In this document: positions 3,919 through 55,613 of the stretch, in pieces
Position numbering within the stretch: position 1 is the stretch's first letter
Layout of the letters: every line of letters begins with the position of its first letter
Virus record (IMG/VR): IMGVR_UViG_3300031244_000002
Coordinates: 1 to 61,666 of that record
Source: a virus
Lineage: Duplodnaviria > Caudoviricetes
Length of the DNA stretch: 61,666 bases
Strand: one strand, 5' to 3'
Program-made: the position numbers and the translations under genes
The notes under the pieces: generated by a model
Told to the model about the DNA's origin: nothing
What the model saw: the letters and a program-made list of their open reading frames with translations, nothing else
The model's database searches: none

Positions 3919-3937
3919 CGCATAGTTCGTCCGTATG

Positions 3938-3962
3938 CCTGCCGGGGTTCGCCCCCGGCAGG
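3938..3962 (+). terminator. GC-rich hairpin after capsid gene (terminator/attenuator)
   Basis: CCTGCCGGGG-ttcgc-CCCCGGCAGG followed by ttacacttt. Confidence 0.5.
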
Positions 3963-3971
3963 TTACACTTT

Positions 3972-28998: not shown

Positions 28999-30090
28999 AT
29001 GCATATACTCACACTAGAAGACACGGTAGATCTCGGTTCAAAGCAGGTAATTAAACCAGATAGCTACCTCATTGACGACATAAACGCAGCCCACCTACTT
29101 GTCCTCGCAAGCCGAGGAACGATGAATAAACTGGCTACTATTCGTACTCTAGACGAAACACAAGATTGGAACAATAAGCGCATCCTTGTTATGCGTGCAG
29201 GTGGGTTTGGTGATCTTGTTTTGTTAACCCCGGTGCTCCGAGAAATTAAGCGCCGATGGCCATCCTGCTATATCGCCGTTTCTACGATGGCCACATACGC
29301 CCAGGTTATCTCTAACCTGCCATACGTTGACCACATATCTGAATATCCTATTCAAATCGATAACGCCAATACATTTGACGCATGGGTCTTTCTTGAAAAC
29401 GCGATCGAGAGAAACCCGCGCGCCGAAGAAGTTCATATGACCGAATTATTCGGTGAGATAGCCGGAATAAGCTCGATAGAAGATATTAAACCTGACTACA
29501 AGGTCAAAGCCACAGAGGCTATCTGGGCAAATGAAGCTTACCCCCGTGTTGAGGGCACACGCCGATGCTGCATCCAGATCGGCACATCAGCACTCTGCCG
29601 AACTTATCCTCGTCCTAAGCTCGGTGAAGTCTGCACTGCACTAATCCAAAAAGGCTGGGAAGTATTTTTACTTGGAGCTAATGGGGAAATCCGGGTAGAT
29701 AAGATGCCTCACAATATGCGTAACCTTGCCGATGCCGATCTTACGCTTCGGCAGTCTGCAGCGGTTATGAATAACGCTGATGTATTTCTTGGTAGCGATT
29801 CGGCACTGCTCCATATTGCTGGAGCATTAGCAGTACCAGCTGTTGGTCTCTACGGACCATTCCCATGGTTCCTACGCACAAAGCACTGCCCAACGACCGT
29901 AGCGATTTCAGGAACGGGTGCATGCGCGCCGTGTTTCCATCACGTTAACTCTGCGCGTCGTAATCATTTCCCGGATTACTGCCCATCAAAGAGCAAGGGG
30001 ATATGCCAGGTGCTTGAGGATATATCACCAGCACGCATCGTCACAAAGCTTGAATCGATAGCGCGTAACCAAATTGATATGATCCAATAA
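28999..30090 (+). CDS. Glycosyltransferase family 9 (heptosyltransferase-like)
   Basis: RILVMRAGGFGDLVLLTPVLREIKRRWP; GSDSALLHIAGAL..PAVGLYGP. Confidence 0.85.
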   Translation: MHILTLEDTVDLGSKQVIKPDSYLIDDINAAHLLVLASRGTMNKLATIRTLDETQDWNNKRILVMRAGGFGDLVLLTPVLREIKRRWPSCYIAVSTMATYAQVISNLPYVDHISEYPIQIDNANTFDAWVFLENAIERNPRAEEVHMTELFGEIAGISSIEDIKPDYKVKATEAIWANEAYPRVEGTRRCCIQIGTSALCRTYPRPKLGEVCTALIQKGWEVFLLGANGEIRVDKMPHNMRNLADADLTLRQSAAVMNNADVFLGSDSALLHIAGALAVPAVGLYGPFPWFLRTKHCPTTVAISGTGACAPCFHHVNSARRNHFPDYCPSKSKGICQVLEDISPARIVTKLESIARNQIDMIQ

Positions 30091-30103
30091 ACGCCATCTT
30101 CAA

Positions 30104-30148
30104 GAGTGAGCCATTACAAAGGTATTATCTGTAATACCATGGTTAGAG
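30104..30148. repeat. Degenerate attC-like site 0
   Basis: GTGAGCCAT left-arm motif; right arm GGTATTATCTGTAATACCATGGTT is 21/24 identical to that of site 2. Confidence 0.45.
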
Positions 30149-30154
30149 AAATCT

Positions 30155-30343
30155 ATGAAAACTGAAAAAGACCAAACACAGGAACAGATAAAGAACTAAC
30201 GCGACGTGCTCTTAAGCATCGAAGGCCAGGCTCAAAAACGACACGAAGAATCCGAGCGCGTAATCAAGCTCCTCGTGTCCGCTGGCCTCGTAAGCGATGA
30301 CAAGGTAGCGCAGGCCCGCGCACTGGCAAACCCTCTCTGCTGA
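30155..30343 (+). pseudogene. Cassette 0 ORF with internal stop
   Basis: MKTEKDQTQEQIKN*RDVLLSIEG...ANPLC*; in-frame TAA at 30197-30199. Confidence 0.5.
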
Positions 30344-30458
30344 ACATCCCAGTGAGCCACGGATCTGCCGCGAACACCTAAAAACCATGAACTCCACTGA
30401 CAACCCATCGAAAACCAAGGAACCGGCAGAGACGTTGCGCTCTAGTGGCTGGTTGGCC
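30339..30458. repeat. attC-like site 1
   Basis: GCTGAAC..GTGAGCCACGGATCTGCCG...CGGCAGAGACGTTGCGCTCTAGTGGCTG-GTTGGCC; ATG 30387 in loop. Confidence 0.8.
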
Positions 30459-30719
30459 GCTCTGACGGAAACCGCCGATGACCGCGAGCACGATGCGGCC
30501 CTGGTAATGCTGGACGATCTTCGTGCCGCCCTGCGATACATCGACAAGCTGGAATGCGCGAGCCGCGAAAACCTAATCTCTGCGCGAATAATCGACGCAG
30601 AGAACAACCAACGGGGACACATCTACGCTATCACGAGAGACGCTAAATTTATCCTCGCCAGAACCGAAGCGGCTCTTTATTCGGCCAACAAACCCGACTC
30701 AGCTAAACCCAACCTGTAA
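30387..30719 (+). CDS. Cassette 1 hypothetical protein
   Basis: Starts in site 1 loop, ends in site 2. Confidence 0.6.
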   Translation: MNSTDNPSKTKEPAETLRSSGWLAALTETADDREHDAALVMLDDLRAALRYIDKLECASRENLISARIIDAENNQRGHIYAITRDAKFILARTEAALYSANKPDSAKPNL

Positions 30720-30752
30720 TTACCGGCATTGTCTGTAATGCCATGGTTCTCC
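30683..30752. repeat. attC-like site 2 (poorly paired arms)
   Basis: GGCCAAC..CTCAGC...GGCATTGTCTGTAATGCCATG-GTTCTCC. Confidence 0.6.
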
Positions 30753-30780
30753 ATCCGATTTTAACCTCAATCAAAACGAT

Positions 30781-31155
30781 ATGGGATACATACGACATGA
30801 CGCAATAATTGTAACCGCTTGGGACTCCGAGCGGCTCGCCAGATGCGTGGCTAAAGCCGCCGAACTCGGGCTATGCCACACGGAAATAGTCGGCTCTAAA
30901 AGCAACGGATATGCCTCTTTTATGATCGTGCCGGACGGCTCGAAAGAGGGATGGCCTGCATCTGATGAGGGTAAAACAGCGCGGGAGGCATGGATCTTTT
31001 GGGCGCGAAACACCGAGGAGCTTTGGGCTGACTGGGTGCTCGTGAACTACGGCGGAGATGAGCCGGAATATACAAGCATTGCAGACCACAACGGCAAAGA
31101 GGCCGGAGCATTGGAGAACAACCGCGCTTCAGCCACGCCGGAGAAAATGCTATGA
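30781..31155 (+). CDS. Cassette 2 hypothetical protein
   Basis: MGYIRHDAIIVT...NGYASFMIVPDGSKEGW. Confidence 0.7.
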   Translation: MGYIRHDAIIVTAWDSERLARCVAKAAELGLCHTEIVGSKSNGYASFMIVPDGSKEGWPASDEGKTAREAWIFWARNTEELWADWVLVNYGGDEPEYTSIADHNGKEAGALENNRASATPEKML

Positions 31156-31206
31156 AAACAGAAACGAACAAAGCTCCGGCGTTGCGCTGTGAGGCAATAG
31201 TTAGGC
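31113..31206. repeat. attC-like site 3
   Basis: GGAGAAC..TCAGCCACGCCGGAG...CTCCGGCGTTGCGCTGTGAGGCAATA-GTTAGGC; ATGA stop/start overlap in loop. Confidence 0.85.
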
Positions 31207-31418
31207 TCTCGTGGAGACAATGGCTAGACATCAAACACGGCCTAGAAAATGGCGTAGCGATGTGGAAGACACATGCCGAGCGATACAAGACCGATCCGAT
31301 TTACAACGATACGCCACGCAAAACCATACATCCGGTACACCGCAGGATCATCGCACAGTATGCGCGCGCGCTGAAAACGATAGAGCGTATCGAGCCGAAC
31401 ACCCGCAGTGAGCCATGA
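31152..31418 (+). CDS. Cassette 3 hypothetical protein
   Basis: Starts in site 3 loop. Confidence 0.55.
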   Translation: MKTETNKAPALRCEAIVRLSWRQWLDIKHGLENGVAMWKTHAERYKTDPIYNDTPRKTIHPVHRRIIAQYARALKTIERIEPNTRSEP

Positions 31419-31453
31419 CGCGCAGCGGCATTGGCTCTGATGCATGGTTGGAC
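31394..31453. repeat. attC-like site 4 (60 bp)
   Basis: GCCGAACACCCGCAGTGAGCCATGACGCGCAGCGGCATTGGCTCTGATGCATG-GTTGGAC. Confidence 0.9.
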
Positions 31454-31480
31454 TCCGAACTTAAACCTTAAAACTACTAA

Positions 31481-32221
31481 ATGAATGAGCTGGCTCTTTT
31501 CGCAGCAACTGGTGGCGGACTACTTGGTGGAAAACTCTGTGGATTCACCACTCGCTGCGCTGTTGAAATCAACCCCTTCCGAGCTAGCGTACTGCTCGCA
31601 CGGCAACGCGACGGTTTACTCCCACACTTCCCAATCTGGGACAACGTGTGCACGTTTGACGGCGTACCATGGCGAGGAATTATTAGGGTGGTATCTGGCG
31701 GGTTTCCGTGCCCAGACATCGCCTCTGGCGGACCAGGCACGGGAATCTTCGGAACCCGATCCGGCCTCGCATTTGAAATGCTCAGAATCATTGGTGAGGT
31801 TCGACCTGCAATCGGACTGTTTGAAAATAGCCCACTGCTCACTCGCCGCGGTCTCGAATACATCCTTTTTGCTCTGGCCCGCATGGGGTACGATGCGCAA
31901 TGGGGAGTGCTGGGGGCGAACCAAGCCGGTGCTTCCCACGGAAGAAAAAGGGCATGGGTTCTGGCATCCGACCCCAACCAAAAGCGACCATCAAGGGGCA
32001 ACGACAAACGCTCTAATCAGGAAGGATGGAAGGACGCGGACCTGTCAGCTGAGATACTGGCTGCAAGACCGTTCCCGACGAACGGGAACGACATACCCGC
32101 ACCCCACGTTTTTGGAGGCAGTGATGGGATGGCCAATGGGCTGGAGCGGGTTGCAGCCTGTGGAGACGGTCAAGTACCAGCAGTGGTGGCGCTCGCATGG
32201 CATCTTCTTTCAAATGAATAA
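31481..32221 (+). CDS. C5-cytosine DNA methyltransferase, alpha-type polypeptide (cassette 4)
   Basis: Motif I LFAATGG, IV GGFPC, VI ENSP, VIII HGRKR, X GDGQVP; motif IX not seen. Confidence 0.8.
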   Translation: MNELALFAATGGGLLGGKLCGFTTRCAVEINPFRASVLLARQRDGLLPHFPIWDNVCTFDGVPWRGIIRVVSGGFPCPDIASGGPGTGIFGTRSGLAFEMLRIIGEVRPAIGLFENSPLLTRRGLEYILFALARMGYDAQWGVLGANQAGASHGRKRAWVLASDPNQKRPSRGNDKRSNQEGWKDADLSAEILAARPFPTNGNDIPAPHVFGGSDGMANGLERVAACGDGQVPAVVALAWHLLSNE

Positions 32222-32282
32222 CCAACCAACACGCTCCGCAGAGGAGTCCAACATCCCAGCTCAGCCACGCCCGCGTGCGTGA
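31485..32282 (+). CDS. Alternative-frame beta-type polypeptide of the C5-MTase
   Basis: 265-codon +1-frame overlap with HPTP and motif-IX-like HPTFLEAVMGWPMGWS; reads into site 5 with AAC=Asn. Confidence 0.6.
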   Translation: MSWLFSQQLVADYLVENSVDSPLAALLKSTPSELAYCSHGNATVYSHTSQSGTTCARLTAYHGEELLGWYLAGFRAQTSPLADQARESSEPDPASHLKCSESLVRFDLQSDCLKIAHCSLAAVSNTSFLLWPAWGTMRNGECWGRTKPVLPTEEKGHGFWHPTPTKSDHQGATTNALIRKDGRTRTCQLRYWLQDRSRRTGTTYPHPTFLEAVMGWPMGWSGLQPVETVKYQQWWRSHGIFFQMNNQPTRSAEESNIPAQPRPRA

Positions 32283-32377
32283 ATCAATCTCATGGAAACA
32301 AAAAATAAACAGAGCGTCGGACAGACGCCAGAACAAGGACAGAGCAAGGGCGTTGCTGCTGTGGCGAATGGTTCGGT
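32246..32377. repeat. attC-like site 5
   Basis: GTCCAAC..CTCAGCCACGCCC...GGGCGTTGCTGCTGTGGCGAATG-GTTCGGT; ATG 32292 in loop. Confidence 0.85.
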
Positions 32378-32624
32378 ACTCCGACAGATGGACCCTCAGC
32401 CAAACTGGCACGAGGAGCCCATCTTCGACGGTGATTCATGGGGCGCGAGATATGTCGGCGCAACGTGTAGCGCGTACGGTGAACCCGAGCAGACTGTTGG
32501 CGAAGACTGGCACAAAGCTCCGGACGACATGCGCGGCGCGAAGCCAGTCGAGCACCTTGGGTACTGGTACTGGTCCTTACCGAACAAAACAGGTGACCAA
32601 TTCCGGGGCCAGTCGGCTCCGTGA
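32292..32624 (+). CDS. Cassette 5 hypothetical protein
   Basis: Starts in site 5 loop, ends in site 6. Confidence 0.55.
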   Translation: METKNKQSVGQTPEQGQSKGVAAVANGSVLRQMDPQPNWHEEPIFDGDSWGARYVGATCSAYGEPEQTVGEDWHKAPDDMRGAKPVEHLGYWYWSLPNKTGDQFRGQSAP

Positions 32625-32710
32625 CACTAAAACCCAGTATTTCATTTTATGGACAACATCGAAGCAACAACGGATAGCGCCCCGGAATTGGGTCTAGTGC
32701 ATGGTTCTTC
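32579..32710. repeat. attC-like site 6
   Basis: ACCGAAC..GTGACCAATTCCGGGGC...GCCCCGGAATTGGGTCTAGTGCATG-GTTCTTC; ATG 32649 in loop. Confidence 0.85.
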
Positions 32711-33038
32711 GGTTTGGCAGATAGTCAGCATTATTTCAGACTCAGAATACGAGGAAGTGAACTGCAATGGTGGGGATCGCCGACGCATCACGAAATCACG
32801 CTGCGTTTGCGGTCAACCCGTATTGATCGAGCATGACGCTAATCGTGGTGGCGTGCGCCGAACATGCCGAGCGGATGGAAAGCGCGTATTCTACCCCAAC
32901 CAGCCGGACGTGGGCTGGTGCGTGTTTCGCTGTAAAGGATGCGGAGAGCCCATCGACCTGACGTGTCCAGACGCGTCATATTCTTTGCAGAACACCAACC
33001 GTCAGACAACCCCGCACTCGACCCATGCCAACGAATAA
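32649..33038 (+). CDS. Cassette 6 Cys-rich (Zn-binding-like) protein
   Basis: CVCG...FRCKGCG. Confidence 0.55.
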   Translation: MDNIEATTDSAPELGLVHGSSVWQIVSIISDSEYEEVNCNGGDRRRITKSRCVCGQPVLIEHDANRGGVRRTCRADGKRVFYPNQPDVGWCVFRCKGCGEPIDLTCPDASYSLQNTNRQTTPHSTHANE

Positions 33039-33092
33039 TCCTCAAGTCCCACCCCTGGCGCCATCGGGGTTGTCTGTACGAGCTGGTTCTGC
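32987..33092. repeat. attC-like site 7
   Basis: GCAGAAC..TCAGACAACCCCG...CGGGGTTGTCTGTACGAGCTG-GTTCTGC; ATG 33025 in loop. Confidence 0.85.
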
Positions 33093-33411
33093 GATTCTTT
33101 GTGAATCATGCGGATACTCAGGCGTGATCGATAGCTATCTCCCGTCGATGTCGGCTTACGCCGATTGCCGATGCCCAAAATGCGGAAGCACGAAAAACCA
33201 GCACAACGCCGACTATTCCGACCGACTCCGCAAGGCGTGGAGCTGTAAACATGTCGAGACACTGGTGGATGCGGGGCGCGCAAATGGGCACCTGATCCTT
33301 AAGTGCACCGAATGCGGATGCGTGGGGCTTGATTGGGCGATGCGCGGCGAACGGCCTCCTTTGCAGAACATCGCTGTGAGCCAACCCGGCACCCGGCCCG
33401 AAACTACCTAA
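33025..33411 (+). CDS. Cassette 7 Zn-ribbon protein
   Basis: CESCG, CPKCG, CTECG. Confidence 0.6.
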   Translation: MPTNNPQVPPLAPSGLSVRAGSAILCESCGYSGVIDSYLPSMSAYADCRCPKCGSTKNQHNADYSDRLRKAWSCKHVETLVDAGRANGHLILKCTECGCVGLDWAMRGERPPLQNIAVSQPGTRPETT

Positions 33412-33465
33412 ACGCAACGGCCTACCTGTGGCAGCATACGGGTTGGCTCTAAAAACTGGTTCGCA
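33363..33465. repeat. attC-like site 8
   Basis: GCAGAAC..GTGAGCCAACCCG...CGGGTTGGCTCTAAAAACTG-GTTCGCA. Confidence 0.85.
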
Positions 33466-33477
33466 CTTCTTTTCTCC

Positions 33478-33741
33478 ATGAAACTATACACCGTAGAAGT
33501 AACATTCAAAACCGTGATCCTCGCCGAAGACGCGAGGGACGCTGAAAATCAGGCCGAGAGCATCGTGAAGCGCGAAGATGATACCGCCGAAACCGTATCC
33601 GCTTTCGAACTGACTAACATCGACGAGCTTCCCGCACCCTGGGAGCCGAAATGCAGACCGTGGGGTAGAGCCCGCGACCCGTACGACCGCACAATCGGCG
33701 GCATTCTTGCGAACAACCAAGGTGACACACGCCATGAATGA
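33478..33741 (+). CDS. Cassette 8 hypothetical protein
   Basis: MKLYTVEVTF..VILAED...A; own start after site 8. Confidence 0.65.
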   Translation: MKLYTVEVTFKTVILAEDARDAENQAESIVKREDDTAETVSAFELTNIDELPAPWEPKCRPWGRARDPYDRTIGGILANNQGDTRHE

Positions 33742-33797
33742 CTCCGCTCAACAGAAAGGTGCCAGCAATGGCGTTGTGCCTAGCGCACTGGTTAGGC
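33708..33797. repeat. attC-like site 9
   Basis: TGCGAAC..GTGACACACGCCAT...ATGGCGTTGTGCCTAGCGCACTG-GTTAGGC; ATG 33734 inside. Confidence 0.8.
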
Positions 33798-34057
33798 CGA
33801 GAGTAGGACAGTGTTGGGCCTTTGGAGGCAGGAATGGGCGACTCGTAACAATTACCAGAGTATCTCATGGAATATGCGGATGCTGGGGCACTAGCACAAA
33901 GGGAAAGCTAGTGCCGGTTGGCGATAATCCGCATACTTGTTTTTACGTTCACGCAACGCCGTCTTGCTCGGCTCAATCGGTAAAATCATGGCTCTACAAC
34001 TGGCACTTTGTCAGTGGGACTAACGCCAGTGATGACCAACGAGCACAGCGAGAATAA
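33734..34057 (+). CDS. Cassette 9 hypothetical protein
   Basis: Start moved to ATG 33734 (MNDSAQQK) within site 9. Confidence 0.5.
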   Translation: MNDSAQQKGASNGVVPSALVRPRVGQCWAFGGRNGRLVTITRVSHGICGCWGTSTKGKLVPVGDNPHTCFYVHATPSCSAQSVKSWLYNWHFVSGTNASDDQRAQRE

Positions 34058-34136
34058 CTTTATGGACCAAAATACAACTCAACCTCAAGCCAACCAAGGA
34101 GCCGCTGTGCTCGTTGGGTCTGGCACTTTGTTAGGC
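34018..34136. repeat. attC-like site 10
   Basis: GACTAAC..ATGACCAACGAGCACAGCG...CGCTGTGCTCGTTGGGTCTGGCACTTT-GTTAGGC; ATG 34062 in loop. Confidence 0.85.
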
Positions 34137-34427
34137 GTCGGTTCTTCCGTGACATGGTGCCACTCGTCATCGAATGGCCGATCAATCGGATTCACGACAC
34201 GGCGCGGCAAGATCGTTCAAATCAACCACGAGAACGGCATGGCATTCGTGAAGTTCAGGGGAACGCACCTATGGATACGGCTCACGCGGCTGCGCTCGGC
34301 AAGCGCACGTACAGAACTCACCGAAATGGTCATGGAGGATGCTTCGCCTAAAGCGAGCCCGGCAAGCGACGATCCGCACGCCGCTGCAATATTCAACCTG
34401 CACCGCAGTAGGCAGGGACTCGCCTAA
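34062..34427 (+). CDS. Cassette 10 hypothetical protein (SH3/KOW-like)
   Basis: VGSSVTW...RRGKIVQI...AFVKFRG; stop TAA is part of core GCCTAAC. Confidence 0.5.
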   Translation: MDQNTTQPQANQGAAVLVGSGTLLGVGSSVTWCHSSSNGRSIGFTTRRGKIVQINHENGMAFVKFRGTHLWIRLTRLRSASARTELTEMVMEDASPKASPASDDPHAAAIFNLHRSRQGLA

Positions 34428-34521
34428 CGCCGGGGGTGAGACATGACCTGCGCCACAACCAACTCCCGAATTAACCTCAAAACGTCCAGCGCAGGGCATT
34501 GTCTCTAATCGCTGGTTCGCA
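34422..34521. repeat. attC-like site 11
   Basis: GCCTAAC..GTGAGACATGACCTGCGC...GCGCAGGGCATTGTCTCTAATCGCTG-GTTCGCA. Confidence 0.85.
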
Positions 34522-34528
34522 TCTTTTT

Positions 34529-34783
34529 ATGACCGACTTACACGCAATGAAACGAGAAATCGAGGGTGGCGACAATATGCGCGACCTCTCAGAGCTGCAC
34601 GCTTCCGATCTGGGCGAAATCGTCTGGCAGCATCGGAGTGGCGCAACCGACATCTACATCGCCAAGCGCCTGCGGGCAAAGCTCTGGCAGGTGAAAAACT
34701 ACATCCGCGATGTGGAGAAACGCTTTTCTGCGAACGTTACAGGTCAGCCACTCGGCAGAACAACCAATCAACATGAGCAATAA
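34529..34783 (+). CDS. Cassette 11 small HTH-like protein
   Basis: SGATDIYIAKRLRAKLWQVKNYI; start moved to ATG 34529. Confidence 0.5.
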   Translation: MTDLHAMKREIEGGDNMRDLSELHASDLGEIVWQHRSGATDIYIAKRLRAKLWQVKNYIRDVEKRFSANVTGQPLGRTTNQHEQ

Positions 34784-34840
34784 ACAAAATCGTAAGAAAA
34801 AGGACGGACAGCCGAGTTGCGCTGTAGCGACTGGTTCGGC
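34729..34840. repeat. attC-like site 12
   Basis: TGCGAAC..GTCAGCCACTCGGC...GCCGAGTTGCGCTGTAGCGACTG-GTTCGGC; ATG 34773 in loop. Confidence 0.85.
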
Positions 34841-35042
34841 TCAGTCCTTCAATAGTCGTATAACATTCTTCGGGTGTTTGATACTTGAAGAACCAACTGG
34901 ACAATGGGCCGTTGTCGAAACCCATGCGTTCAGAACGCGCGAAGAAGCTCAGTCTTTCGGAGAAGCAAAACTGCTGCTCACGCATGAAAGTGTGAAGCCG
35001 TCGCGTCTCGTGTGGAGGATAAAATCTCATGTCGCCCTTTGA
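34773..35042 (+). CDS. Cassette 12 hypothetical protein
   Basis: Start moved to ATG 34773 (MSNKQNRK). Confidence 0.5.
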   Translation: MSNKQNRKKKDGQPSCAVATGSAQSFNSRITFFGCLILEEPTGQWAVVETHAFRTREEAQSFGEAKLLLTHESVKPSRLVWRIKSHVAL

Positions 35043-35045
35043 TCT

Positions 35046-35105
35046 GCCGAACACCCGCAGTGAGCCATGACGCGCAGCGTCATTGGCTCTGATGCATGGT
35101 TCTGC
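35046..35105. repeat. attC-like site 13 (near-copy of site 4)
   Basis: 55/56 identical to site 4 up to GTT; ends GTTCTGC. Confidence 0.9.
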
Positions 35106-35122
35106 CCCTAAATCTCAAACTT

Positions 35123-35653
35123 ATGAAAACACCTAGAACAAACGCACAGATAATTCTTTTGACCGACGCTGAATCGGAAATGCTCCATCTTTTGAGTGGA
35201 GAACGCAGGCTGGTTCCTGCTGCGCTGGCTGAATCGCTAGAAACGCAGCTCACCCAATGGGTCGAAGCGGCGGACGCCTCGCAACAATCGCAGGCTTTCT
35301 ACGATGGATATGGAGAGGCGCAAATGCGGGCGATGCAGGCAATGATGACCAACGCCAAAACAGACGCCGACGATCAGGCGAAATGGGCAAAGCACTACTC
35401 CGACCGCTGCGACAAGCTGGTAGAACAGCTCGCGGAGTGCGCAGGCGTGCTGGCAAGCGTGGATACGGAACGCCGGTTTCGTGATATGCACGGAAACATT
35501 TGGATAAGCCAGACACTAGACTGGTGCAAGGGCGCGAAGGCCATCGGCGAGAAAGCAAACGCTCTACTGGAAGAGCACGACGATCTTTCCGCGCAGAACG
35601 CCGTCCATGAGCCAACCGCGCAACCCGGCCCATCGAAGCCCCTGGCGTCATAG
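35123..35653 (+). CDS. Cassette 13 coiled-coil hypothetical protein
   Basis: MKTPRTNA...VPAALAESLETQL; ends in site 14. Confidence 0.6.
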   Translation: MKTPRTNAQIILLTDAESEMLHLLSGERRLVPAALAESLETQLTQWVEAADASQQSQAFYDGYGEAQMRAMQAMMTNAKTDADDQAKWAKHYSDRCDKLVEQLAECAGVLASVDTERRFRDMHGNIWISQTLDWCKGAKAIGEKANALLEEHDDLSAQNAVHEPTAQPGPSKPLAS

Positions 35654-35680
35654 CGGTTGGCTCTGGGGACATGGTTAGGA
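35593..35680. repeat. attC-like site 14
   Basis: GCAGAAC..ATGAGCCAACCGC...GCGGTTGGCTCTGGGGACATG-GTTAGGA. Confidence 0.85.
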
Positions 35681-35690
35681 CTCCGAATTT

Positions 35691-35987
35691 ATGACACCAG
35701 AAAAACTAGATAAACTAATCGACAACATGAAACTTCCGCTTGGCGGCCCAGCATGGCTGCGCGCTAAGGCTGACGAAAAAGACGAGCTATTTCACCTAAT
35801 CACGTCGCCTGACCCAATAAATCGGCGCGAAGATGAGAGAGAAATCATTGGACTTAGGGATGCCGCAACGCGAATGGAGTACCTAGAACTGACGCTTGAG
35901 ATGCTCGATAAGCGCGTCCACTCAAACTACGACTTCAACGCCGACCCAGACAAGATGACGCTGCGCGTGTCGCGTGCTTTGTCCTAA
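35691..35987 (+). CDS. Cassette 14 hypothetical protein
   Basis: Stop TAA is part of core TCCTAAC. Confidence 0.6.
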   Translation: MTPEKLDKLIDNMKLPLGGPAWLRAKADEKDELFHLITSPDPINRREDEREIIGLRDAATRMEYLELTLEMLDKRVHSNYDFNADPDKMTLRVSRALS

Positions 35988-36079
35988 CAACCCAGCTCAG
36001 CCATGACCATGCCACTACCGACTCCAGCTCTCGCAGAAACGACCGCGCATGGTCATTGCGCTGTGGCGACTGGTTCTGC
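35982..36079. repeat. attC-like site 15
   Basis: TCCTAAC..CTCAGCCATGACCATGC...GCATGGTCATTGCGCTGTGGCGACTG-GTTCTGC; ATG 36003 inside. Confidence 0.85.
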
Positions 36080-36563
36080 CTCCGTCTTGGATGCGTGCTG
36101 CGGAAGTCGCATGTTCTGGTTCGACCGCGCTGACCCTCGTGCAATCTTCATCGACAAACGAAGCGAGCGGCACGAGCTGCCAGATAAATCAAGCAAGGGC
36201 GGAAAGCGGTCTCTGATCGTCGCGCCGGACATCGTCGCCGACTTCACGGCGCTTCCGTTCGCGGATGAGACGTTCGCGCTCGTGAGCTTCGATCCGCCGC
36301 ACTTCGAGCGCAATGGCGCGAAGGGCTGGGTCGGGCTGAAATACGGCACGCTCACGGGCGACTGGCGCGAGATGCTGCGCAAAGGCTTTGCCGAGTGCTT
36401 CCGAGTGCTCAAGCACGAGGGCACGCTCGTTTTCAAATGGTGCGAGGATGAAATCCCGGTCTCGCAGATCCTACAACTCACGCCGGAGCGGCCGCTGTTC
36501 GGCAACCGCTGTGGCAAAACCGCGAAAACGCACTGGGTCGTTTTCTTAAAGCAGAACAAGTAG
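36003..36563 (+). CDS. SAM-dependent (amino-type DNA) methyltransferase, cassette 15
   Basis: VLDACCGSRMFWFD (SAM binding), DFTALPF.D.TF.LV.FDPPH (DPPY-like), GTLVFKW. Confidence 0.8.
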   Translation: MTMPLPTPALAETTAHGHCAVATGSASVLDACCGSRMFWFDRADPRAIFIDKRSERHELPDKSSKGGKRSLIVAPDIVADFTALPFADETFALVSFDPPHFERNGAKGWVGLKYGTLTGDWREMLRKGFAECFRVLKHEGTLVFKWCEDEIPVSQILQLTPERPLFGNRCGKTAKTHWVVFLKQNK

Positions 36564-36600
36564 GTCGTACGATCTGCCAAGTCTAAACAATAAGTCATGA
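36551..36600. other. Terminal half-site (core only), candidate attI-like insertion point
   Basis: GCAGAAC complementary to the cassette-15 start GTTCTGC, but no palindromic partner arm follows. Confidence 0.45.
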
Positions 36601-36878
36601 GACTATCTAAACAAGGAATCGAACGCATTAGAAATGGCTTAATTCGCTCTTGGCAGACAGGCGGAACTCATCACCAGCGCGTGCAGACACAAGTAATCGA
36701 CGCAGATACACTGCGTAGGCGTGCTTTAAATGACCGAAAAGGAAAATTCGTTGGATCGTTCGATCTATACCACTCCACGCATCGCAGTGATCAGTTTGAT
36801 CTATTTTTTGAGAGTGAACTTGTTGCAACCGGTGGTCCTAGAGTGATAGCAAAATTTATGGCCAAAATCACACATTGA
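36597..36878 (+). CDS. Hypothetical protein
   Basis: 93-aa ORF right of array. Confidence 0.5.
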   Translation: MRLSKQGIERIRNGLIRSWQTGGTHHQRVQTQVIDADTLRRRALNDRKGKFVGSFDLYHSTHRSDQFDLFFESELVATGGPRVIAKFMAKITH

Positions 36879-36881
36879 CCA

Positions 36882-37217
36882 ATGCCTTATCGATCTAAAG
36901 TAAAACGCCTCCAGTATGCTGCACGATGGCGCCGACAGTATCCGGGATATATGTCTACCTATGGTAAGGAGTATTATAACCGTAAAAGAGAAAAACGCCG
37001 ATCACTTCTAGTTTTATGCATAATTTCACTATTTAAAAATTATCGTTTGGTTAGATCTGCATTTAAATCGGCTAAAATATATACACAGGAATCTAAATTA
37101 TTTAGATATTGGGTAAAAACAGTACCATGCCAAGATATACAAAACCAAATTGATAGACTGAAGAAGGACTTATCACCTACAGCAATACATACATTGGAGA
37201 TTACACTAGAAATTTAA
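36882..37217 (+). CDS. Basic hypothetical protein
   Basis: MPYRSK..R.QYAARWRR pattern; AT-rich. Confidence 0.45.
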   Translation: MPYRSKVKRLQYAARWRRQYPGYMSTYGKEYYNRKREKRRSLLVLCIISLFKNYRLVRSAFKSAKIYTQESKLFRYWVKTVPCQDIQNQIDRLKKDLSPTAIHTLEITLEI

Positions 37218-37218
37218 T

Positions 37219-39480
37219 ATGACTATTCAGAATCAGCTAAAAAACTTGGCGCATAGGGATCAGATTGGGGATTTCCTTAATTCACTTGGCCTAACTGGTA
37301 AAGGGGTAGAAGTCGGAACTCTTTACGGTGCCTATGCATCTGCGATACTTAGTAAGTGGAATGGGAATCTTAATTGCATTGACCCGTGGATAAACCAATC
37401 AGAAAAGGTTTATTTTGATCAGGCTAACGAGCTAGACATGGACCAGGTATTTGATCAATGCAGTGACGGGGTAGGCCGTCACCCACGCTGCACGCTGCAT
37501 CGAACAATGAGCCTTAATGGAGTAGGAAAATTCGATGACTACGAGTTGGATTTCGTTTACCTTGACGGTAATCACTCAGTTGAAGCGATACGTGAAGATA
37601 TATCAGCATGGTGGCCGAAAGTAAAGATAGGTGGTATATTTTCAGGCCATGATTTCTTTACTCGATACGATAGCACGGGGAACTGCGATGCGCTAACGGC
37701 AGTAATGGAACTATCCGAAGCTATCGGTATTCGACCTCATGTAACGTGGTGTTCAAGCTGGTGGTTTATTAAGACAGAGGAGGCGGATTTGAGCTTTCAA
37801 GGAGCTTGCGTAGAAGATCGCCTTTCACGTCCTGTATATACCACAAATCCAGATGAACTGGTTGTAGTTATTCCAGTTGCCAAGTTCGATTGGAATCTCG
37901 CTGTTAAGATGCTCACGTGGTGGTCAAATATGCTCAATGGAAAGCCTAACTACTATCCGACAATAGCACTTTGCTCAACAGAGCTCACCGCTGAACAGCG
38001 TGACGCCATAGGCGACTCAAGATTACCAAATCTATCAATCGTTGTAGCCAACGACGTTAAAGAACTTGGATATTTTGGCTCTCCTAATCAGATGATACGC
38101 CTAGCGCTTGAATACTGTGAAGTAAATTTCTGCGACCGTGCTATGCTTTGGGTCGAGGCAGATACAGTTCCAATGCGCCCATCATGGGTAAGCGATATAG
38201 CCGTTGAGTACTATAATTTCGGACGTCCATTCATGGGCGCTCTTCAACGTGAAGGGCCGGTCCCGCATCTCAGCGGTAACGCAGTGTACCATCCACAATG
38301 GCGCACACTCGCACCATCACTCGCTAAGCTCGGGCAAGAAGCCTGTGGATGGGATAGCCTGTGCGCACACGATATTGTCCCTCGATGCCATGTGGCTAAA
38401 ACTATTCAGCAAATATGGCGCCCACAGCTACCGATAACAGAGCAATTCCTAGAAAGCAGTATTCGACCTGAGACTGCGCTATTCCATCAATGCAAGGATG
38501 GTTCTCTGATCGATGTGTTGTGCAGGCGTGACGGCCTACAAGATATACCGTTAGGCAAAGCGCTATGTGAATCCACATATGAGACAGATAAAATTAAGAT
38601 CATAAACGAACCAGGTCACAAAGTGTTTAAACCAAAACCAAGGTATCAACCGGTAATAAAAACTACATCGATAAGCGTCGAGATATTGATCGTAACACAC
38701 GCAAAAGATATTCCATTCTTAAGGTTTTGCCTAGCATCTATCCACAAAAACACTGCTGGGTTTACAGGCACCACGCTTGTTGTACCTTCATCCGAAAGAG
38801 AGCAGTTCAAAAATATACCTAAGTGGGTTAAAATAGTCTATTTCGATCAAATCGAAGGTAAGGGCGTGATGCATCATGTACTCATGAAATGTAGGGCTGA
38901 TGAACTATGCCCAAATGCTGATGCAATTCTTCACGTAGATGCAGATTGCATGTTCTGGACGCCAACTACACCTGTTCATTATGCTCCTGGAGCTAAGCCA
39001 ATAATTCTCCGTGAGAAGTTCTCTAAAATAGGATCAAGAAATACGACCAGAATGTTATGGCAGAAAAATGTCGAAAGGGCACTAGGATTTCTACCGGAAT
39101 ACGAAACGATGGTTGCCCACCCAAATATCTACCTGAGGAGCCTATATCCAAAGATGAGATCGATAGTTCAAGATATCCATGGGATTCCGTTTGATCAATT
39201 TGCGCTATCTGGTAGGAATGAATTCCCGCAATCGTTCCAGGAATTTACAACGCTTGGTGCAACCGCCATAAAGTACTTTAACGAGTACTACAATTTTGTA
39301 GACTACGACCACGACCGAGACGGCCAGGAATGCGGTGTTGTTGGGTCGGACTACCAATATATTTACCGTCGAGACCGCGATCATCTAGTCGAAGCATGGA
39401 GCCATGGTGGTATCGATCGCTATAAATCAGACTGGACTGCATTCCTAGACGGTAAAGTACCTGCATACTATTTAAAATGA
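37219..39480 (+). CDS. Class I SAM methyltransferase (Methyltransf_24-like) fused to two glycosyltransferase-like domains
   Basis: GVEVGTLYG, IDPW, LDFVYLDGNH, WWPKVKIGG..SGHDF; later WVEADTVP and LHVDADC DxD-like motifs. Confidence 0.7.
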   Translation: MTIQNQLKNLAHRDQIGDFLNSLGLTGKGVEVGTLYGAYASAILSKWNGNLNCIDPWINQSEKVYFDQANELDMDQVFDQCSDGVGRHPRCTLHRTMSLNGVGKFDDYELDFVYLDGNHSVEAIREDISAWWPKVKIGGIFSGHDFFTRYDSTGNCDALTAVMELSEAIGIRPHVTWCSSWWFIKTEEADLSFQGACVEDRLSRPVYTTNPDELVVVIPVAKFDWNLAVKMLTWWSNMLNGKPNYYPTIALCSTELTAEQRDAIGDSRLPNLSIVVANDVKELGYFGSPNQMIRLALEYCEVNFCDRAMLWVEADTVPMRPSWVSDIAVEYYNFGRPFMGALQREGPVPHLSGNAVYHPQWRTLAPSLAKLGQEACGWDSLCAHDIVPRCHVAKTIQQIWRPQLPITEQFLESSIRPETALFHQCKDGSLIDVLCRRDGLQDIPLGKALCESTYETDKIKIINEPGHKVFKPKPRYQPVIKTTSISVEILIVTHAKDIPFLRFCLASIHKNTAGFTGTTLVVPSSEREQFKNIPKWVKIVYFDQIEGKGVMHHVLMKCRADELCPNADAILHVDADCMFWTPTTPVHYAPGAKPIILREKFSKIGSRNTTRMLWQKNVERALGFLPEYETMVAHPNIYLRSLYPKMRSIVQDIHGIPFDQFALSGRNEFPQSFQEFTTLGATAIKYFNEYYNFVDYDHDRDGQECGVVGSDYQYIYRRDRDHLVEAWSHGGIDRYKSDWTAFLDGKVPAYYLK

Positions 39481-53184: not shown

Positions 53185-54495
53185 ATGTCTGACTCACAAC
53201 TAGCGGAGCGCCCACAGTCTGTTAAGGACTATCTCGCACTTCCATCATACCGAGATCGTTTCCATGAAGTGATGGGAAAACGTGCGAATCAATTCATGGC
53301 CTCTATTGTCGCATCAGCGCAGATGCCCGCACTGAAAGATGCCGAACCACGCTCAGTAATCGCTGCCGCAATGGTCGCAGCTACACTCGACCTACCAGTA
53401 AACCCCACACTTGGTATGGCGCACATCGTTGCCTACGGTGATAAAACTGGTGCAAAGATAGCACAGTTCCAGTGTGGCTATAAGGGATTCATCCAACTCG
53501 CACTACGGTCCGGCCAGTACAAAAGACTGAATGCTGGACCATTAAATTCAGAAGCCTTCGCTGGCTATGATCTCGTTGGTGAGCCAAAGCTAGATTGGTC
53601 TGAATATGACCCAGTCAAACCAGTGGGCGGATATTTCTGCGCTTTTGAGTTACTCAATGGATTCACGAAAGTAGTTTATTGGCCCAAGAAGCAAGTTGAA
53701 GAACACGCAAAGCGATTCAGTAAGGCCTATCAAAAGGGCTACCAGTCTTCACCGTGGTTTTCTGATTTTGACGGTATGGCTACCAAGACGGTGATAAAGA
53801 ATGCCCTGACGAAATGGGGAATTCTTTCTGTTGAGATGCAGAAAGCAGCTACCCACGACCAGGGCGTTCAAGTGGATGTCGATTCGGACGTTAAATATGT
53901 CGATGCCGAGCCATTGAATACTACTTCTGAAAATGAAGCTGAAACAACCGGCGCCACTCAACAGCCTACCCGTCCAGCACCTCCGCCGCGCGCCAAGAAA
54001 GGTGCCGCTGCAGCTGAAGCTGCAATCGACGTCACGGCTACCCCGGTTAAGAATCCAGAGAAAACTGTCGAACTAGAGAAGCCCGTGGTCAAAGAACAAG
54101 AGCCGGCACAAGCACCCAAGACCGAAGAAAAGAAGCCAGAGCCCCCCAAGAATCAGACACCTCGGCAATCTCTCCAAGACAAGGAAGAGCTGGTTACTGT
54201 ATGCGTGCCTGACAAGCTTTTCGCGCTCAATATCAAGCTTGCTGGCGTGGATACACCATCAGTACGTGCTACACTTAAGGGCGGATACATTGGTGATGTC
54301 TACCACTTCGGCGGTGCAATCAAGAACCCTTCTGGTGATGGGCTGATCCCAACCAAAGAATGGGAGATCGGAACTCCTGTCTCGCTCCTGCTGAGTGGCC
54401 GACTCAATAGTAAATCAGGAACACTGCTCACCGAGGTAAAGAAAATAACTCCAGTTGAGGCTGCGTCCGACACGGCGCAGATGGCGATTGAGTGA
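53185..54495 (+). CDS. recT: RecT-family ssDNA annealing protein
   Basis: AATLDLP.NP.LG.AHIV.Y, AQFQ.GYKGFIQLALRSGQY, W..DFD.MA.KTVIK. Confidence 0.9.
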   Translation: MSDSQLAERPQSVKDYLALPSYRDRFHEVMGKRANQFMASIVASAQMPALKDAEPRSVIAAAMVAATLDLPVNPTLGMAHIVAYGDKTGAKIAQFQCGYKGFIQLALRSGQYKRLNAGPLNSEAFAGYDLVGEPKLDWSEYDPVKPVGGYFCAFELLNGFTKVVYWPKKQVEEHAKRFSKAYQKGYQSSPWFSDFDGMATKTVIKNALTKWGILSVEMQKAATHDQGVQVDVDSDVKYVDAEPLNTTSENEAETTGATQQPTRPAPPPRAKKGAAAAEAAIDVTATPVKNPEKTVELEKPVVKEQEPAQAPKTEEKKPEPPKNQTPRQSLQDKEELVTVCVPDKLFALNIKLAGVDTPSVRATLKGGYIGDVYHFGGAIKNPSGDGLIPTKEWEIGTPVSLLLSGRLNSKSGTLLTEVKKITPVEAASDTAQMAIE

Positions 54496-55418: not shown

Positions 55419-55613
55419 ATGGGTAAGCGCGGTGTTCTGGTTAAGAAACCTGAAGATCCAGCTGACTTTGCCACCGAAAAGTCGGCGTTGAAATATATCG
55501 GTATCGCCGAACGATGCGCCAATAAGTTCCGTGGTACGCTCGTCGATGAGATGCCCAAGCTTAGGCCACTCATTGAAGGCGGAGTATTCGGTGTAAGGAT
55601 GATGCATCGATGA
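55419..55613 (+). CDS. Hypothetical protein
   Basis: ATGA-coupled to nuclease; start uncertain. Confidence 0.35.
   Translation: MGKRGVLVKKPEDPADFATEKSALKYIGIAERCANKFRGTLVDEMPKLRPLIEGGVFGVRMMHR

What the first reader, a model, noticed from the sequence alone, without database searches (positions are those of the whole stretch)
30339..36563. attC-like sites are inverted relative to the genes and double as translational-coupling modules
Seen: (1) where arms are unequal, the unpaired bases lie in the right arm on the + strand (GAGCCA-TG vs CA-T-TGGCTC; CAGC-CA-CG vs CG-T-TG-C-GCTG; GACC-AA vs TTGG-G-TC). (2) Nine ORFs start inside the upstream site (ATG 30387, 31152, 32292, 32649, 33025, 33734, 34062, 34773, 36003) and cross GTT in all three phases. 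(3) All 12 ORFs that read through a downstream core use its AAC as an in-frame Asn (SAN, LEN, EPN, ESN, LPN, LQN, LQN, LAN, GTN, SAN, AQN, KQN); three others stop within the core (TGAAC, TAAC) and one just before it. Stops fall close to or overlap the next ATG. Known (from memory): the recombinogenic bottom strand of canonical attC carries extrahelical bases on the arm preceding GTT, and attC normally lies 3' of its gene. Inference: here the coding strand equals the canonical bottom strand, crossover is at AA/C, and each cassette carries its site and start codon at its 5' end. Any predecessor would gain a short tail, a stop and coupling to the next ATG, keeping any cassette order translatable. 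The L-box extrahelical base looks like T rather than the usual G.
Basis: partly seen in the sequence, partly recalled or inferred. Interest (0 to 1): 0.9.

Follow-up and report, generated by a model that had tools for sequence, protein, structure and literature searches.

The report
Phage integron cassettes with flipped genes
A bacteriophage carries sixteen integron-style gene cassettes whose genes lie on the opposite strand from the usual one, so each recombination hairpin sits in front of its gene and supplies the stop codon for the previous gene and often the start codon for the next.

Summary
Window 30090-36557 holds 16 complete attC-type sites plus one terminal AAC core, all on the + strand. 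The window is a whole ~62-kb phage record with no tyrosine recombinase, so this is a CALIN.

The same site family fills chromosomal integrons of Verrucomicrobiota (mostly Opitutaceae). A covariance model built only from IntI-linked bacterial sites finds 9 window sites at E<=0.003, all on the + strand.

Three tests make the phage coding strand the attC bottom strand:
- Bulged bases lie only on the 3' arm.
- Site-bearing arrays lie 5' of intI on intI's strand in 3 phage integrons and 16 of 18 bacterial loci.
- Bacterial arrays code on the other strand (62 intervals against 1).

In phage arrays, 32 of 32 ORFs that read through the AAC core use it in frame. All phage sites tested carry a stop in that frame, against 71 of 160 bacterial sites. 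Start codons inside the hairpin loop are enriched (15 of 22 long sites against 7 of 69).

Translational coupling and cleavage at AA/C are inferred, not shown. Which neighbouring gene a site travels with is unresolved.

CALINs in phages are published. I found the flipped polarity and the frame-locked junction in no paper.

The parts
30090..30144 (+). site S0, first complete attC-type site. Its AAC overlaps the stop of the flanking glycosyltransferase gene (TAAAC).
   Evidence: Missed by the regex; read by eye. The right half is 88% like that of site b, with compensatory changes (D18).
30343..30454 (+). site a. The loop holds ATG 30387.
   Evidence: 2 bulges on the right arm; E 0.001, + strand
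30687..30748 (+). site b, short, with a poor inner stem
   Evidence: Not found by model R1.
31117..31202 (+). site c (AGTT instead of GGTT). The loop holds ATG 31152, in an ATGA overlap with the upstream stop.
   Evidence: About 88% identical to a site in L199. Weak model hit, E 9.8.
31398..31449 (+). site d, 52 nt, near-identical to site m
   Evidence: D3, 56 nt, 98%; 47 bits, E 6e-11
32250..32373 (+). site e. The loop holds ATG 32292.
   Evidence: Partial model hit 32328-32377, E 0.46. Missed by the regex.
32583..32706 (+). site f, 15-bp stem with one bulged G. The loop holds ATG 32649.
32991..33088 (+). site g, 12-bp perfect inner stem. The loop holds ATG 33025.
   Evidence: (z -3.56)
33367..33461 (+). 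site h. The next ATG (33478) lies after GTT.
33712..33793 (+). site i. The loop holds ATG 33734.
   Evidence: E 0.0002
34022..34132 (+). site j (TGTT). 15-bp stem plus a bulged G. The loop holds ATG 34062.
   Evidence: I21; z -4.06; E 0.003
34426..34517 (+). site k. The upstream ORF ends TAAC.
   Evidence: E 0.00016
34733..34836 (+). site l. The loop holds ATG 34773.
   Evidence: 31.9 bits, E 1e-06
35050..35101 (+). site m, a twin of site d
   Evidence: 43.8 bits, E 4.8e-10
35597..35676 (+). site n
   Evidence: E 0.0014
35986..36075 (+). site o. The upstream ORF ends TAAC. The loop holds ATG 36003 of the methyltransferase.
   Evidence: E 0.00014. Contigs of other runs carry this site with other flanks.
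36555..36557 (+). terminal bare AAC core with no stem or GTT partner. This is the right end of the array, where attI and intI sit in related arrays.
   Evidence: Compare the bare AAC 57 nt before the intI start codon in L023.
30156..30343 (+). first cassette body: a 14-codon ORF (30156-30200) followed by a GTG ORF in another frame (30206-30343). Possibly one broken gene.
30387..30719 (+). ORF of 110 aa, starts in the loop of site a, reads through the AAC of site b in frame
   Evidence: No family hit.
30781..31155 (+). ORF of 124 aa, starts after the GTT of site b
   Evidence: phrog_11375, E 1.6e-27
31152..31418 (+). ORF of 88 aa, starts in the loop of site c
31481..32282 (+). C5 DNA methyltransferase split over two frames (31481-32221 and 31485-32282)
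   Evidence: PF00145, E 3.9e-18, on the first frame. PHROG hits on the second frame. Translations.
32292..32624 (+). ORF of 110 aa, starts in the loop of site e
32649..33038 (+). ORF of 129 aa, starts in the loop of site f
   Evidence: phrog_19024 from residue 45
33025..33411 (+). ORF of 128 aa, starts in the loop of site g
33478..33741 (+). ORF of 87 aa, starts after the GTT of site h
33734..34057 (+). ORF of 107 aa, starts in the loop of site i
34062..34427 (+). ORF of 121 aa, starts in the loop of site j
34529..34783 (+). ORF of 84 aa, starts after the GTT of site k
34773..35042 (+). ORF of 89 aa, starts in the loop of site l, stops before site m
35123..35653 (+). ORF of 176 aa, starts after the GTT of site m
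35691..35987 (+). ORF of 98 aa, starts after the GTT of site n
36003..36563 (+). DNA methyltransferase of 186 aa. The ATG lies in the loop of site o. Family similarity begins at residue 23-28, just after GTT.
   Evidence: phrog_954, E 1.1e-69; 46 homologous loci

Best explanation
Window 30090-36557 is an integron-type cassette array without an integrase (a CALIN). It sits inside a complete, integrase-less phage genome whose host is probably an Opitutaceae bacterium (Verrucomicrobiota). Its 16 sites belong to the attC family used by chromosomal integrons of that clade.

Unlike the bacterial arrays, the phage genes lie on the recombinogenic bottom strand of the sites. Reading along the genes, each site runs 5'-AAC, left arm, loop, right arm with bulged T/C/G, GTT-3' and precedes its gene.

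If an integron integrase cuts as in known integrons (AA/C on the bottom strand; inferred), the array tiles exactly into 16 units of 'site plus downstream gene'. A complete site stands at the far end and a bare AAC at the end where attI and intI sit in related phages.

Most genes have no stop of their own. They run through AAC as an Asn codon into the next site, which always has a stop 2-18 codons on. That site often carries the next ATG in its loop. So the site works as a standard joint: it ends one protein and begins the next in any order of cassettes. This part is inferred and has comparative support; translational coupling is not shown.

In this phage the integrase would have to come from the host or a co-infecting phage.
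For: Family membership.
- A pattern taken from the window's sites finds 8 real sites among 15 hits in viral contigs.
By my count of titles, about 52 of the 80 rows printed are Verrucomicrobiota.
- My regex finds 175 sites in those bacterial loci.
- Model R1, built only from 22 bacterial sites next to IntI homologues, finds 9 window sites at E<=0.003 and 4 more weakly. All are on the + strand. There is no minus-strand hit inside the array and no hit below E 0.01 elsewhere in the window.

Integrase link.
- L016 ORF 1102-2160 scores 279.9 bits on TIGR02249 (cut-off 265). The L017 ORF scores 212.7, below the cut-off, but this is its best family.

Polarity.
- Extra bases on right arm versus left arm: window 12 vs 0, other viral 15 vs 0, bacterial 181 vs 2. 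Nivina 2016 places the extrahelical bases near L'' and cleavage in the AAC of R' on the bottom strand (passages read).
- Of 18 bacterial loci with an IntI homologue, 16 have regex sites upstream of intI on intI's strand and 0 have sites on the other strand.
- The same geometry holds in three independent viral records: G002; G003, which is identical to G005 over the shared 19,275 nt; and L210.
- In L023 a bare AAC lies 57 nt before the intI start codon.

Gene strand, by intervals between consecutive sites.
- Window: 8 longer on the site strand, 0 on the opposite, 5 ambiguous.
- Other viral: 3, 0 and 6.
- Bacterial: 1, 62 and 26, of 89.
- Family hits in the window are on the + strand. In L023 the + strand ORFs tile the array.

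Joint.
- Read-through ORFs in frame 0: 12 of 12, 9 of 9, 11 of 11.
- On the same strand of bacterial sites, frames 0/1/2 are 23/9/20.
- Frame-0 stop inside the site: 17 of 17 window cores, 16 of 16 and 15 of 15 viral sites, against 71 of 160 bacterial sites.
- Loop ATG open for 50 or more codons past GTT: 8 of 11 and 7 of 11 long viral sites, against 7 of 69 bacterial.

Unit.
- L008 and L014 share a backbone with 1 mismatch in 3106 nt and 0 in the 109 nt up to and including AAC+1.
- They differ from 2 nt after the left AAC to a terminal TAAC, with four cassettes in one phage and one in the other.
Against: No integrase is present in the window, and no excision or rearrangement joint was seen in contigs of 4 runs. 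So activity here is not shown.

Sites do not clearly travel with the downstream gene:
- Sites d and m are 98% identical between unrelated genes on both sides.
- Site c is about 88% identical to a site in L199, with similarity starting 4 nt before AAC and ending after GTTAGGC.
- Contigs from other runs keep site o but diverge before TAAC and after GTTCT.
- The methyltransferase homologue of L145 (86% identity) follows a different site.

The loop ATGs may not be the real starts:
- Most of the 46 methyltransferase homologues start 3-10 codons before the conserved VLD motif and have no site.
- In-frame GTG or TTG codons exist nearer the gene body.

Limits of method:
- Single-site folds are mostly no better than shuffles.
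- The site regex came from the window. It requires TT at the start of the right arm, which may favour finding a T bulge.
- The bacterial IntI hits are tblastn matches that were not checked against TIGR02249.
- In viral record G001 the only tyrosine recombinase lies about 7 kb on the other side of the site.
Confidence: 0.7

Rival explanations
1. Fossil array used as RNA. The sites came from integron cassettes but are no longer recombined in this integrase-less phage. They persist because, as hairpins in the mRNA, they organise translation (stop, restart, start-codon display) or RNA processing and stability.
For: - There is no integrase in the window and no joints in 4 runs.
- The phage-specific features are translational ones: the frame-0 stop and loop ATG are enriched against bacterial sites.
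- G-T pairs next to the AAC/GTT cores are tolerated on the + strand (AACG with TGGTT in 5 of 17 cores, read).
Against: - The recombination features are kept intact: AAC/GTT cores, bulges on one arm, and strong stem covariation between sites.
- Related phages carry integron integrases right beside such arrays.
- One phage pair differs by whole cassettes.
- No Rfam family matches; the best hit is E 0.07 to an unrelated lncRNA model.
Confidence: 0.25
2. Shuffling by homologous recombination. The conserved arms of the sites serve as short homology for the phage's own RecT/exonuclease system. Genes and sites then reassort at both cores, with no integrase involved.
For: - The phage encodes a RecT-like annealing protein (E 1.2e-62) and an exonuclease (E 1.1e-22).
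- Near-identical sites sit between unrelated genes on both sides.
- In L145 a 41-nt left half plus loop is repeated on both sides of the methyltransferase.
Against: - Breakpoints fall at the AAC or GTT cores rather than spread through the conserved arms.
- The arrays keep integron polarity, with a complete site at the far end and a bare AAC at the intI end, in the window, L023, L008 and L014.
- High similarity among sites flanked by unrelated genes is, from memory, also usual in large chromosomal integrons such as those of Vibrio.
Confidence: 0.2
3. Canonical polarity. The + strand is the top strand, each site belongs to the gene upstream of it, and the loop ATGs are accidental.
For: - Seven ORFs start 11-35 nt after GTT (61 nt for the first cassette's GTG ORF), as in ordinary cassettes.
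- Several comparisons break right after GTT.
Against: - Bulges lie on the wrong arm for a top strand.
- intI lies on the wrong side in 16 of 18 bacterial loci and 3 viral records.
- Bacterial arrays of the same family code on the other strand.
- Model R1 hits only the + strand.
- The last gene (36003-36563) would have no site, and the flanking glycosyltransferase would own site S0.
Confidence: 0.05

Closest known systems
Clusters of attC sites lacking an integrase (CALINs) in virulent and temperate phages (Qi et al. 2023, PMC9892861; abstract, section 3.4 and passages read)
   Same: Both are arrays of attC sites without intI inside phage genomes. Methyltransferase cassettes are among the cargo. 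Phage attC sites were recombined by IntI1 in their assay.
   Different: In the parts I read, that paper says nothing about genes lying on the bottom strand, start codons inside the sites or a fixed reading frame at the core. It describes two phage arrays as having the arrangement most typical of bacterial arrays.
Sedentary chromosomal integrons of Verrucomicrobiota (Opitutaceae), as seen in loci L025-L144
   Same: They share the attC family (cores, arms, bulged T) and the same position relative to intI.
   Different: Their genes are on the other strand, pointing away from intI (62 intervals against 1). Only 44% of their sites carry a frame-0 stop and 10% of long sites a loop ATG.
Reverse or inverted-integrase integrons of Treponema (Tansirichaiya et al. 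2016, PMC4909258, passages; Cury et al. 2016, PMC4889954, passages)
   Same: The integrase and the cassette genes point the same way.
   Different: There the integrase gene is flipped relative to the attC sites. Here intI keeps the canonical strand and side relative to the sites, and it is the cassette genes that are flipped. The array lies upstream of the intI start.
Promoter-plus-stem-loop mobile cassettes (PeSL) of T4-type phages (recalled, not looked up)
   Same: Repeated structured elements lie between small accessory genes in a plastic phage region and are thought to aid shuffling.
   Different: No promoter signal is enriched here (4 found against 3.2 expected). The sites belong to an integrase-linked attC family.
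Integrase-driven insertion of cassettes at genomic sites outside att sites (bioRxiv 10.1101/2022.09.11.507474; search listing and abstract start only)
   Same: It would explain an array that sits between AAC cores in an otherwise ordinary phage backbone.
   Different: It was shown for bacterial genomes. No evidence here shows how the array entered the phage.

Membership tests
integron attC recombination site | Outer inverted cores: AAC in R' and GTT in R'' on the bottom strand (RYYYAAC / GTTRRRY) | tested here: met
   16 of 16 complete sites have AAC and GTT (c has AGTT and j TGTT before it). The flanks fit RYYY/RRRY only loosely in the window and well in the bacterial set.
integron attC recombination site | Inner repeats (L boxes) forming a stem with extrahelical bases on one arm only | tested here: met
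   12 extra bases on the right arm and 0 on the left in 14 window sites; 181 against 2 in 160 bacterial sites.
integron attC recombination site | Unpaired central spacer between the R and L boxes | tested here: inconclusive
   There are spacers of about 8-10 nt on each side, with partial and varying pairing in the folds.
integron attC recombination site | Variable terminal loop; structure conserved more than sequence | tested here: met
   Site lengths are 52-124 nt. Stems differ in sequence but stay complementary.
integron attC recombination site | Match to a covariance model of attC sites | tested here: met
   IntegronFinder's model was not at hand. My own model R1, from 22 IntI-linked bacterial sites, finds 9 window sites at E<=0.003.
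integron attC recombination site | Recombined by an integron integrase as folded single strand | not testable with these tools
   This needs a strand-specific conjugation assay.
CALIN (cluster of attC sites lacking integron integrase) | Two or more attC sites on one strand and no intI nearby | tested here: met
   There are 16 sites on the + strand. TIGR02249 and PF00589 find nothing in the whole 61,666-base record.
complete integron | intI with attI next to the array | tested here: not met
   Absent in the window. Present in related viral records G002, G003/G005 and L210.
canonical integron cassette | Gene on the top strand with its attC downstream of it | tested here: not met
   The genes are on the bottom strand.
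reverse (inverted-integrase) integron | intI on the same strand as the attC top strands | tested here: not met
   In related arrays intI is on the bottom-strand side, as in canonical integrons.
intrinsic terminators / sigma-70 promoters | Hairpin with a T run; -35/-10 hexamers | tested here: not met
   12 terminator-like sites against 8.1 +/- 2.9 in shuffles; 4 promoter-like sites against 3.2 +/- 1.8. None coincides with the site cores.

The most novel reading that the evidence does not exclude
Phages of this clade keep their own pool of integron cassettes of opposite polarity, with the gene on the recombinogenic strand.

These cassettes have a standard joint. The gene ends open at an in-frame AAC. 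The next cassette's attC supplies the tail and the stop, and in most long sites the next start codon in its loop. Integrase-driven shuffling therefore always leaves a translatable operon.

The polarity also puts the folding strand on the non-template strand. Transcription and replication during infection would then expose it, which would speed cassette turnover in the arms race with host defences.
Probability: 0.35. Interest if true: 0.85.

Novelty: new variant of a known kind. Interest (0 to 1): 0.72.

Why it matters
Integrons are the textbook system for capturing and expressing promoterless genes. Their logic rests on one polarity: the gene is read away from the integrase and the attC follows the gene.

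Here the same site family is used with the opposite gene polarity in at least ten phage contigs. The junction rule held in all 32 cases examined. If real, three things follow:
- Phages have their own cassette format and gene pool, which includes DNA methyltransferases and many small unknown proteins, possibly counter-defence genes.
- An attC can double as a coding and translational joint.
- Gene finders and integron finders will misplace starts, stops and cassette borders in such arrays.

It also offers a natural test of how strand choice, transcription and cassette turnover are linked.

Tried and rejected
Searches and scans that led nowhere:
- Relatives of the flanking glycosyltransferase: none in viral contigs.
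- The one relative of the 753-aa flanking gene (L191, 57% identity) has no such sites in the 8 kb upstream of that gene, so it says nothing about how the array entered.
- tblastn of the window's array proteins against the first 15 loci and then all 144 loci: no hit. No shared cassette could be traced that way.
- A generic AAC/stem/GTT scan was far too noisy: 111 and 161 hits on the two strands. I dropped it for a specific regex.
- Counting bulges from minimum-energy folds was noisy because loops fold on themselves. I replaced it with an anchored arm alignment.
- Rfam at E<=1: one chance-level hit, to a lncRNA model, E 0.07.
- Promoter and terminator scans: not enriched.
- Sequencing runs: 24 peat metagenome runs hold the stretch; no RNA holder is listed.
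- Laying contigs of 4 runs gave no joints, only loose ends.
- All-against-all blastn of viral loci gave only the L008/L014 pair.
- Two metagenome scans with 30-nt backbone strings found nothing.

Not used: protein structure, complex, atlas and the large protein-homology searches. The question was about DNA sites.

Literature:
- Seven searches turned up no description of phage arrays with genes on the bottom strand or of a frame-locked AAC junction.
- Supplementary tables of Qi et al. 2023, which list their phage CALINs, could bear on this and were closed.

Full report
**What is there.**
- The window is a whole IMG/VR virus record of 61,666 bases, rated 98% complete.
- It encodes head, virion, internal-virion, RecT, exonuclease and helicase proteins. 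It has no tyrosine recombinase: TIGR02249 and PF00589 find nothing.
- Between 30090 and 36557, on the + strand only, lie 16 imperfect palindromes plus one bare AAC core.
- Each palindrome has the form AAC, an 8-10 nt spacer, a left arm (GAGCCA or CAGCCA type), a loop that brings the whole site to 52-124 nt, a right arm, a 9-10 nt spacer, then (T)GGTT.
- The segment is richer in G+C (0.53-0.56) than the 2-kb windows on either side (0.47).
- Sixteen gene slots on the + strand fill the spaces. Two are DNA methyltransferases, one of them split over two frames. The rest are small proteins with no known function.

- An anchored alignment of the inner arms puts all 12 unpaired bases of the 14 regex-caught window sites on the right arm.
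- The nine listed ATGs lie inside the upstream site. Their frames cross GTT in phases 2,0,1,1,1,0,2,1,1.
- Twelve of 12 ORFs that read through a downstream AAC use it as an in-frame Asn.
- Five more genes, counting the flanking glycosyltransferase, stop on or just before the core (TAAAC, TGAAC, TAAC twice, and one with 7 nt between its stop and the AAC).
- In all 17 cores the AAC frame meets a stop 2-18 codons on, before the right arm.
- Folding energies of single sites are weak evidence. Z-scores run from +0.24 to -4.06, and only 2 of 16 sites beat all 200 shuffles. The case rests on covariation and comparison instead.

**The sites are attC sites of a known clade.**
- A pattern taken from sites d, m and n found 15 viral loci. 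Eight of these have the AAC core at the right distance, and several hold arrays.
By my count of the titles, about 52 of the 80 rows printed are Verrucomicrobiota, mostly Opitutaceae. My regex finds 175 sites there.
- Next to such arrays lie integron integrases. L016 ORF 1102-2160 scores 279.9 bits on TIGR02249 (cut-off 265). The L017 ORF scores 212.7, below the cut-off, but this is far above its next family.
- I built covariance model R1 from 22 short bacterial sites that lie beside IntI homologues, in the orientation of intI.
- R1 finds 9 window sites at E<=0.003 and four more weakly, all on the + strand. Nothing scores below E 0.01 outside the array, and there is no minus-strand hit within it.
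- The host is therefore probably an Opitutaceae bacterium. The phage occurs in 24 peat metagenome runs.

**Polarity.**
- Nivina et al. 2016 (passages read) state that the bottom strand reads R' (RYYYAAC), L', loop, L'' with the extrahelical bases, then R'' (GTTRRRY). It is cleaved in the AAC of R'.
- First test, bulges. Extra bases lie on the arm before GTT in the window (12 vs 0), in other viral sites (15 vs 0) and in bacterial sites (181 vs 2, mostly T). One caution: my regex asks for TT at the start of the right arm.
- Second test, the integrase.
  - Of 18 bacterial loci with an IntI homologue, 16 have regex sites upstream of intI on intI's coding strand, none has a site on the other strand, and one also has a site downstream.
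  - The two without regex sites have their pattern match in the same position.
  - Three independent viral records show the same: G002; G003, which is identical to G005 over 19,275 nt; and L210.
  - In L023 the array ends in a bare AAC 57 nt before the intI start codon.
  - This is the canonical integron layout read along its bottom strand.
  - One viral record (G001) does not fit. Its only recombinase lies about 7 kb on the other side, and I did not test whether it is an IntI.
- Third test, gene strand. For intervals between consecutive sites I compared stop-free lengths on the two strands.
  - Bacterial arrays: 62 intervals longer on the opposite strand, 1 on the site strand, 26 ambiguous, of 89.
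  - Window: 8 on the site strand, 0 opposite, 5 ambiguous.
  - Other viral arrays: 3, 0 and 6.
- So the bacterial arrays are ordinary, with genes pointing away from intI and the attC after the gene. In the phage arrays the genes are flipped relative to the same sites.

**The joint.**
- The in-frame AAC is a rule of the phage arrays. It held in 9 of 9 read-through ORFs in the first batch of viral loci. It held in 11 of 11 in a second batch found with a different pattern.
- With the window's 12 of 12, that makes 32 of 32.
- On the same strand of bacterial sites, open stretches cross AAC in frames 0/1/2 at 23/9/20.
- A frame-0 stop inside the site is present in 14 of 14, 16 of 16 and 15 of 15 viral sites (17 of 17 window cores). 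Only 71 of 160 bacterial sites have one.
- An ATG in the loop, open for 50 or more codons beyond GTT, occurs in 8 of 11 and 7 of 11 long viral sites. Only 7 of 69 long bacterial sites have one.
- The loop-encoded leaders are related between phages. Compare, for example, the leader of site l with that of the L023 site at 6109.
- Stops lie from 14 nt inside the next gene to 44 nt before its ATG for the nine loop starts. They lie 38-102 nt before the seven ATG starts after GTT (together with the 30156 ATG read).
They do not show coupling.

**What is the mobile unit?**
- If cleavage is at AA/C, the window tiles exactly into 16 units of site plus downstream gene. A complete site stands at the left end and a bare AAC at the right.
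- L023, L008 and L014 have the same polarity.
- The best natural experiment is L008 against L014.
  - The backbone has 1 mismatch in 3106 nt, and none in the 109 nt up to AAC+1.
  - The first difference comes 2 nt after the left AAC.
  - Identity returns at a terminal CTAAC.
  - Four cassettes stand against one.
- Against a fixed site-gene bond:
  - Sites d and m are 98% alike between unrelated genes.
  - Site c is about 88% like a site of L199, with similarity bounded by AAC and GTTAGGC.
  - Contigs of other runs carry site o with other flanks on both sides.
  - The 86%-identical methyltransferase of L145 follows a different site, which also has an ATG in its loop and the same GGT-TC phase.
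- Such sameness of sites between unrelated cassettes is, from memory, usual in large chromosomal integrons. Even so, exchange at the GTT core, or by the phage's RecT system, is not excluded.

**Are the loop ATGs real starts?**
- Family similarity of the methyltransferase begins at residue 23-28, just after GTT.
- Most homologues start 3-10 codons before the conserved motif and have no site.
- In the window no ATG lies between GTT and that motif. An in-frame GTG in the right arm and a TTG at the motif do exist.
- The enrichment of open loop ATGs over the bacterial control argues that many are used. Only expression data can settle it.

**Comparison with what is known.**
- CALINs and integrons in phages, with methyltransferase cassettes, are published (Qi et al. 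2023; abstract, section 3.4 and passages).
- Reverse integrons of Treponema have the integrase flipped relative to the sites. Here it is the genes that are flipped.
- Seven literature searches found no account of this polarity or of the frame rule. Supplements were closed.

**Verdict.**
- This is a real attC array in a phage. It is a new variant of a known kind because of its flipped gene polarity and its frame-locked joint.
- The inversion is well supported. The translational role is plausible. Integrase action on this array and the exact mobile unit remain to be shown.

Noticed in passing
window 31481-32282: The C5 cytosine methyltransferase is split over two overlapping long frames. PF00145 matches residues 4-179 of the 31481-32221 frame. 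The C-terminal motif and the PHROG hits lie in the 31485-32282 frame. This could be a frameshift, a sequencing error or programmed slippage.
   Followed up: partly
window 30156-30343: The first cassette holds a 14-codon ORF followed by a 45-codon GTG ORF in another frame, so it looks like a broken small gene. Its leader resembles the leader in the loop of site c (D10).
   Followed up: no
window 31394-31449 and 35046-35101: Sites d and m are 98% identical over 56 nt. The identity starts 3 nt before AAC and ends exactly at GGTT. The genes on all four sides are unrelated.
   Followed up: partly
window 51042-51060: A lone sequence very like a site's right half, ending in ATGGTT, sits inside the 792-aa ORF. 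It has no AAC or left arm upstream and is probably chance.
   Followed up: partly
window 53185-54495 and 55610-56749: The phage encodes a RecT-like annealing protein and an exonuclease. Together they could recombine the repeated site arms.
   Followed up: no
L145:186-780: A methyltransferase 86% identical to the window's is flanked by a 41-nt direct repeat (AAC, left arm and start of the loop, including an ATG). The downstream copy lacks the matching right arm.
   Followed up: partly
window sites e, f, g, l, o; L023 sites: Loop-start ORFs favour one phase at GTT (GGT TCN, Gly-Ser): 9 of the 15 caught, plus site e. Many predicted N-termini therefore end in ...ATGS or ...AGS.
   Followed up: partly
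window 29000-38000: The array is richer in G+C (0.53-0.56) than the phage flanks (0.47), as expected for imported DNA.
   Followed up: no
L046:444-1295 and 3275-4126: This bacterial locus gives two separate tblastn matches to the integron integrase, with a site just before the second.
   Followed up: no
window array and flanks: The ATGs of the array lack Shine-Dalgarno-like purine runs. They sit in A/T-rich or loop sequence, which fits a host that starts translation without that signal.
   Followed up: no
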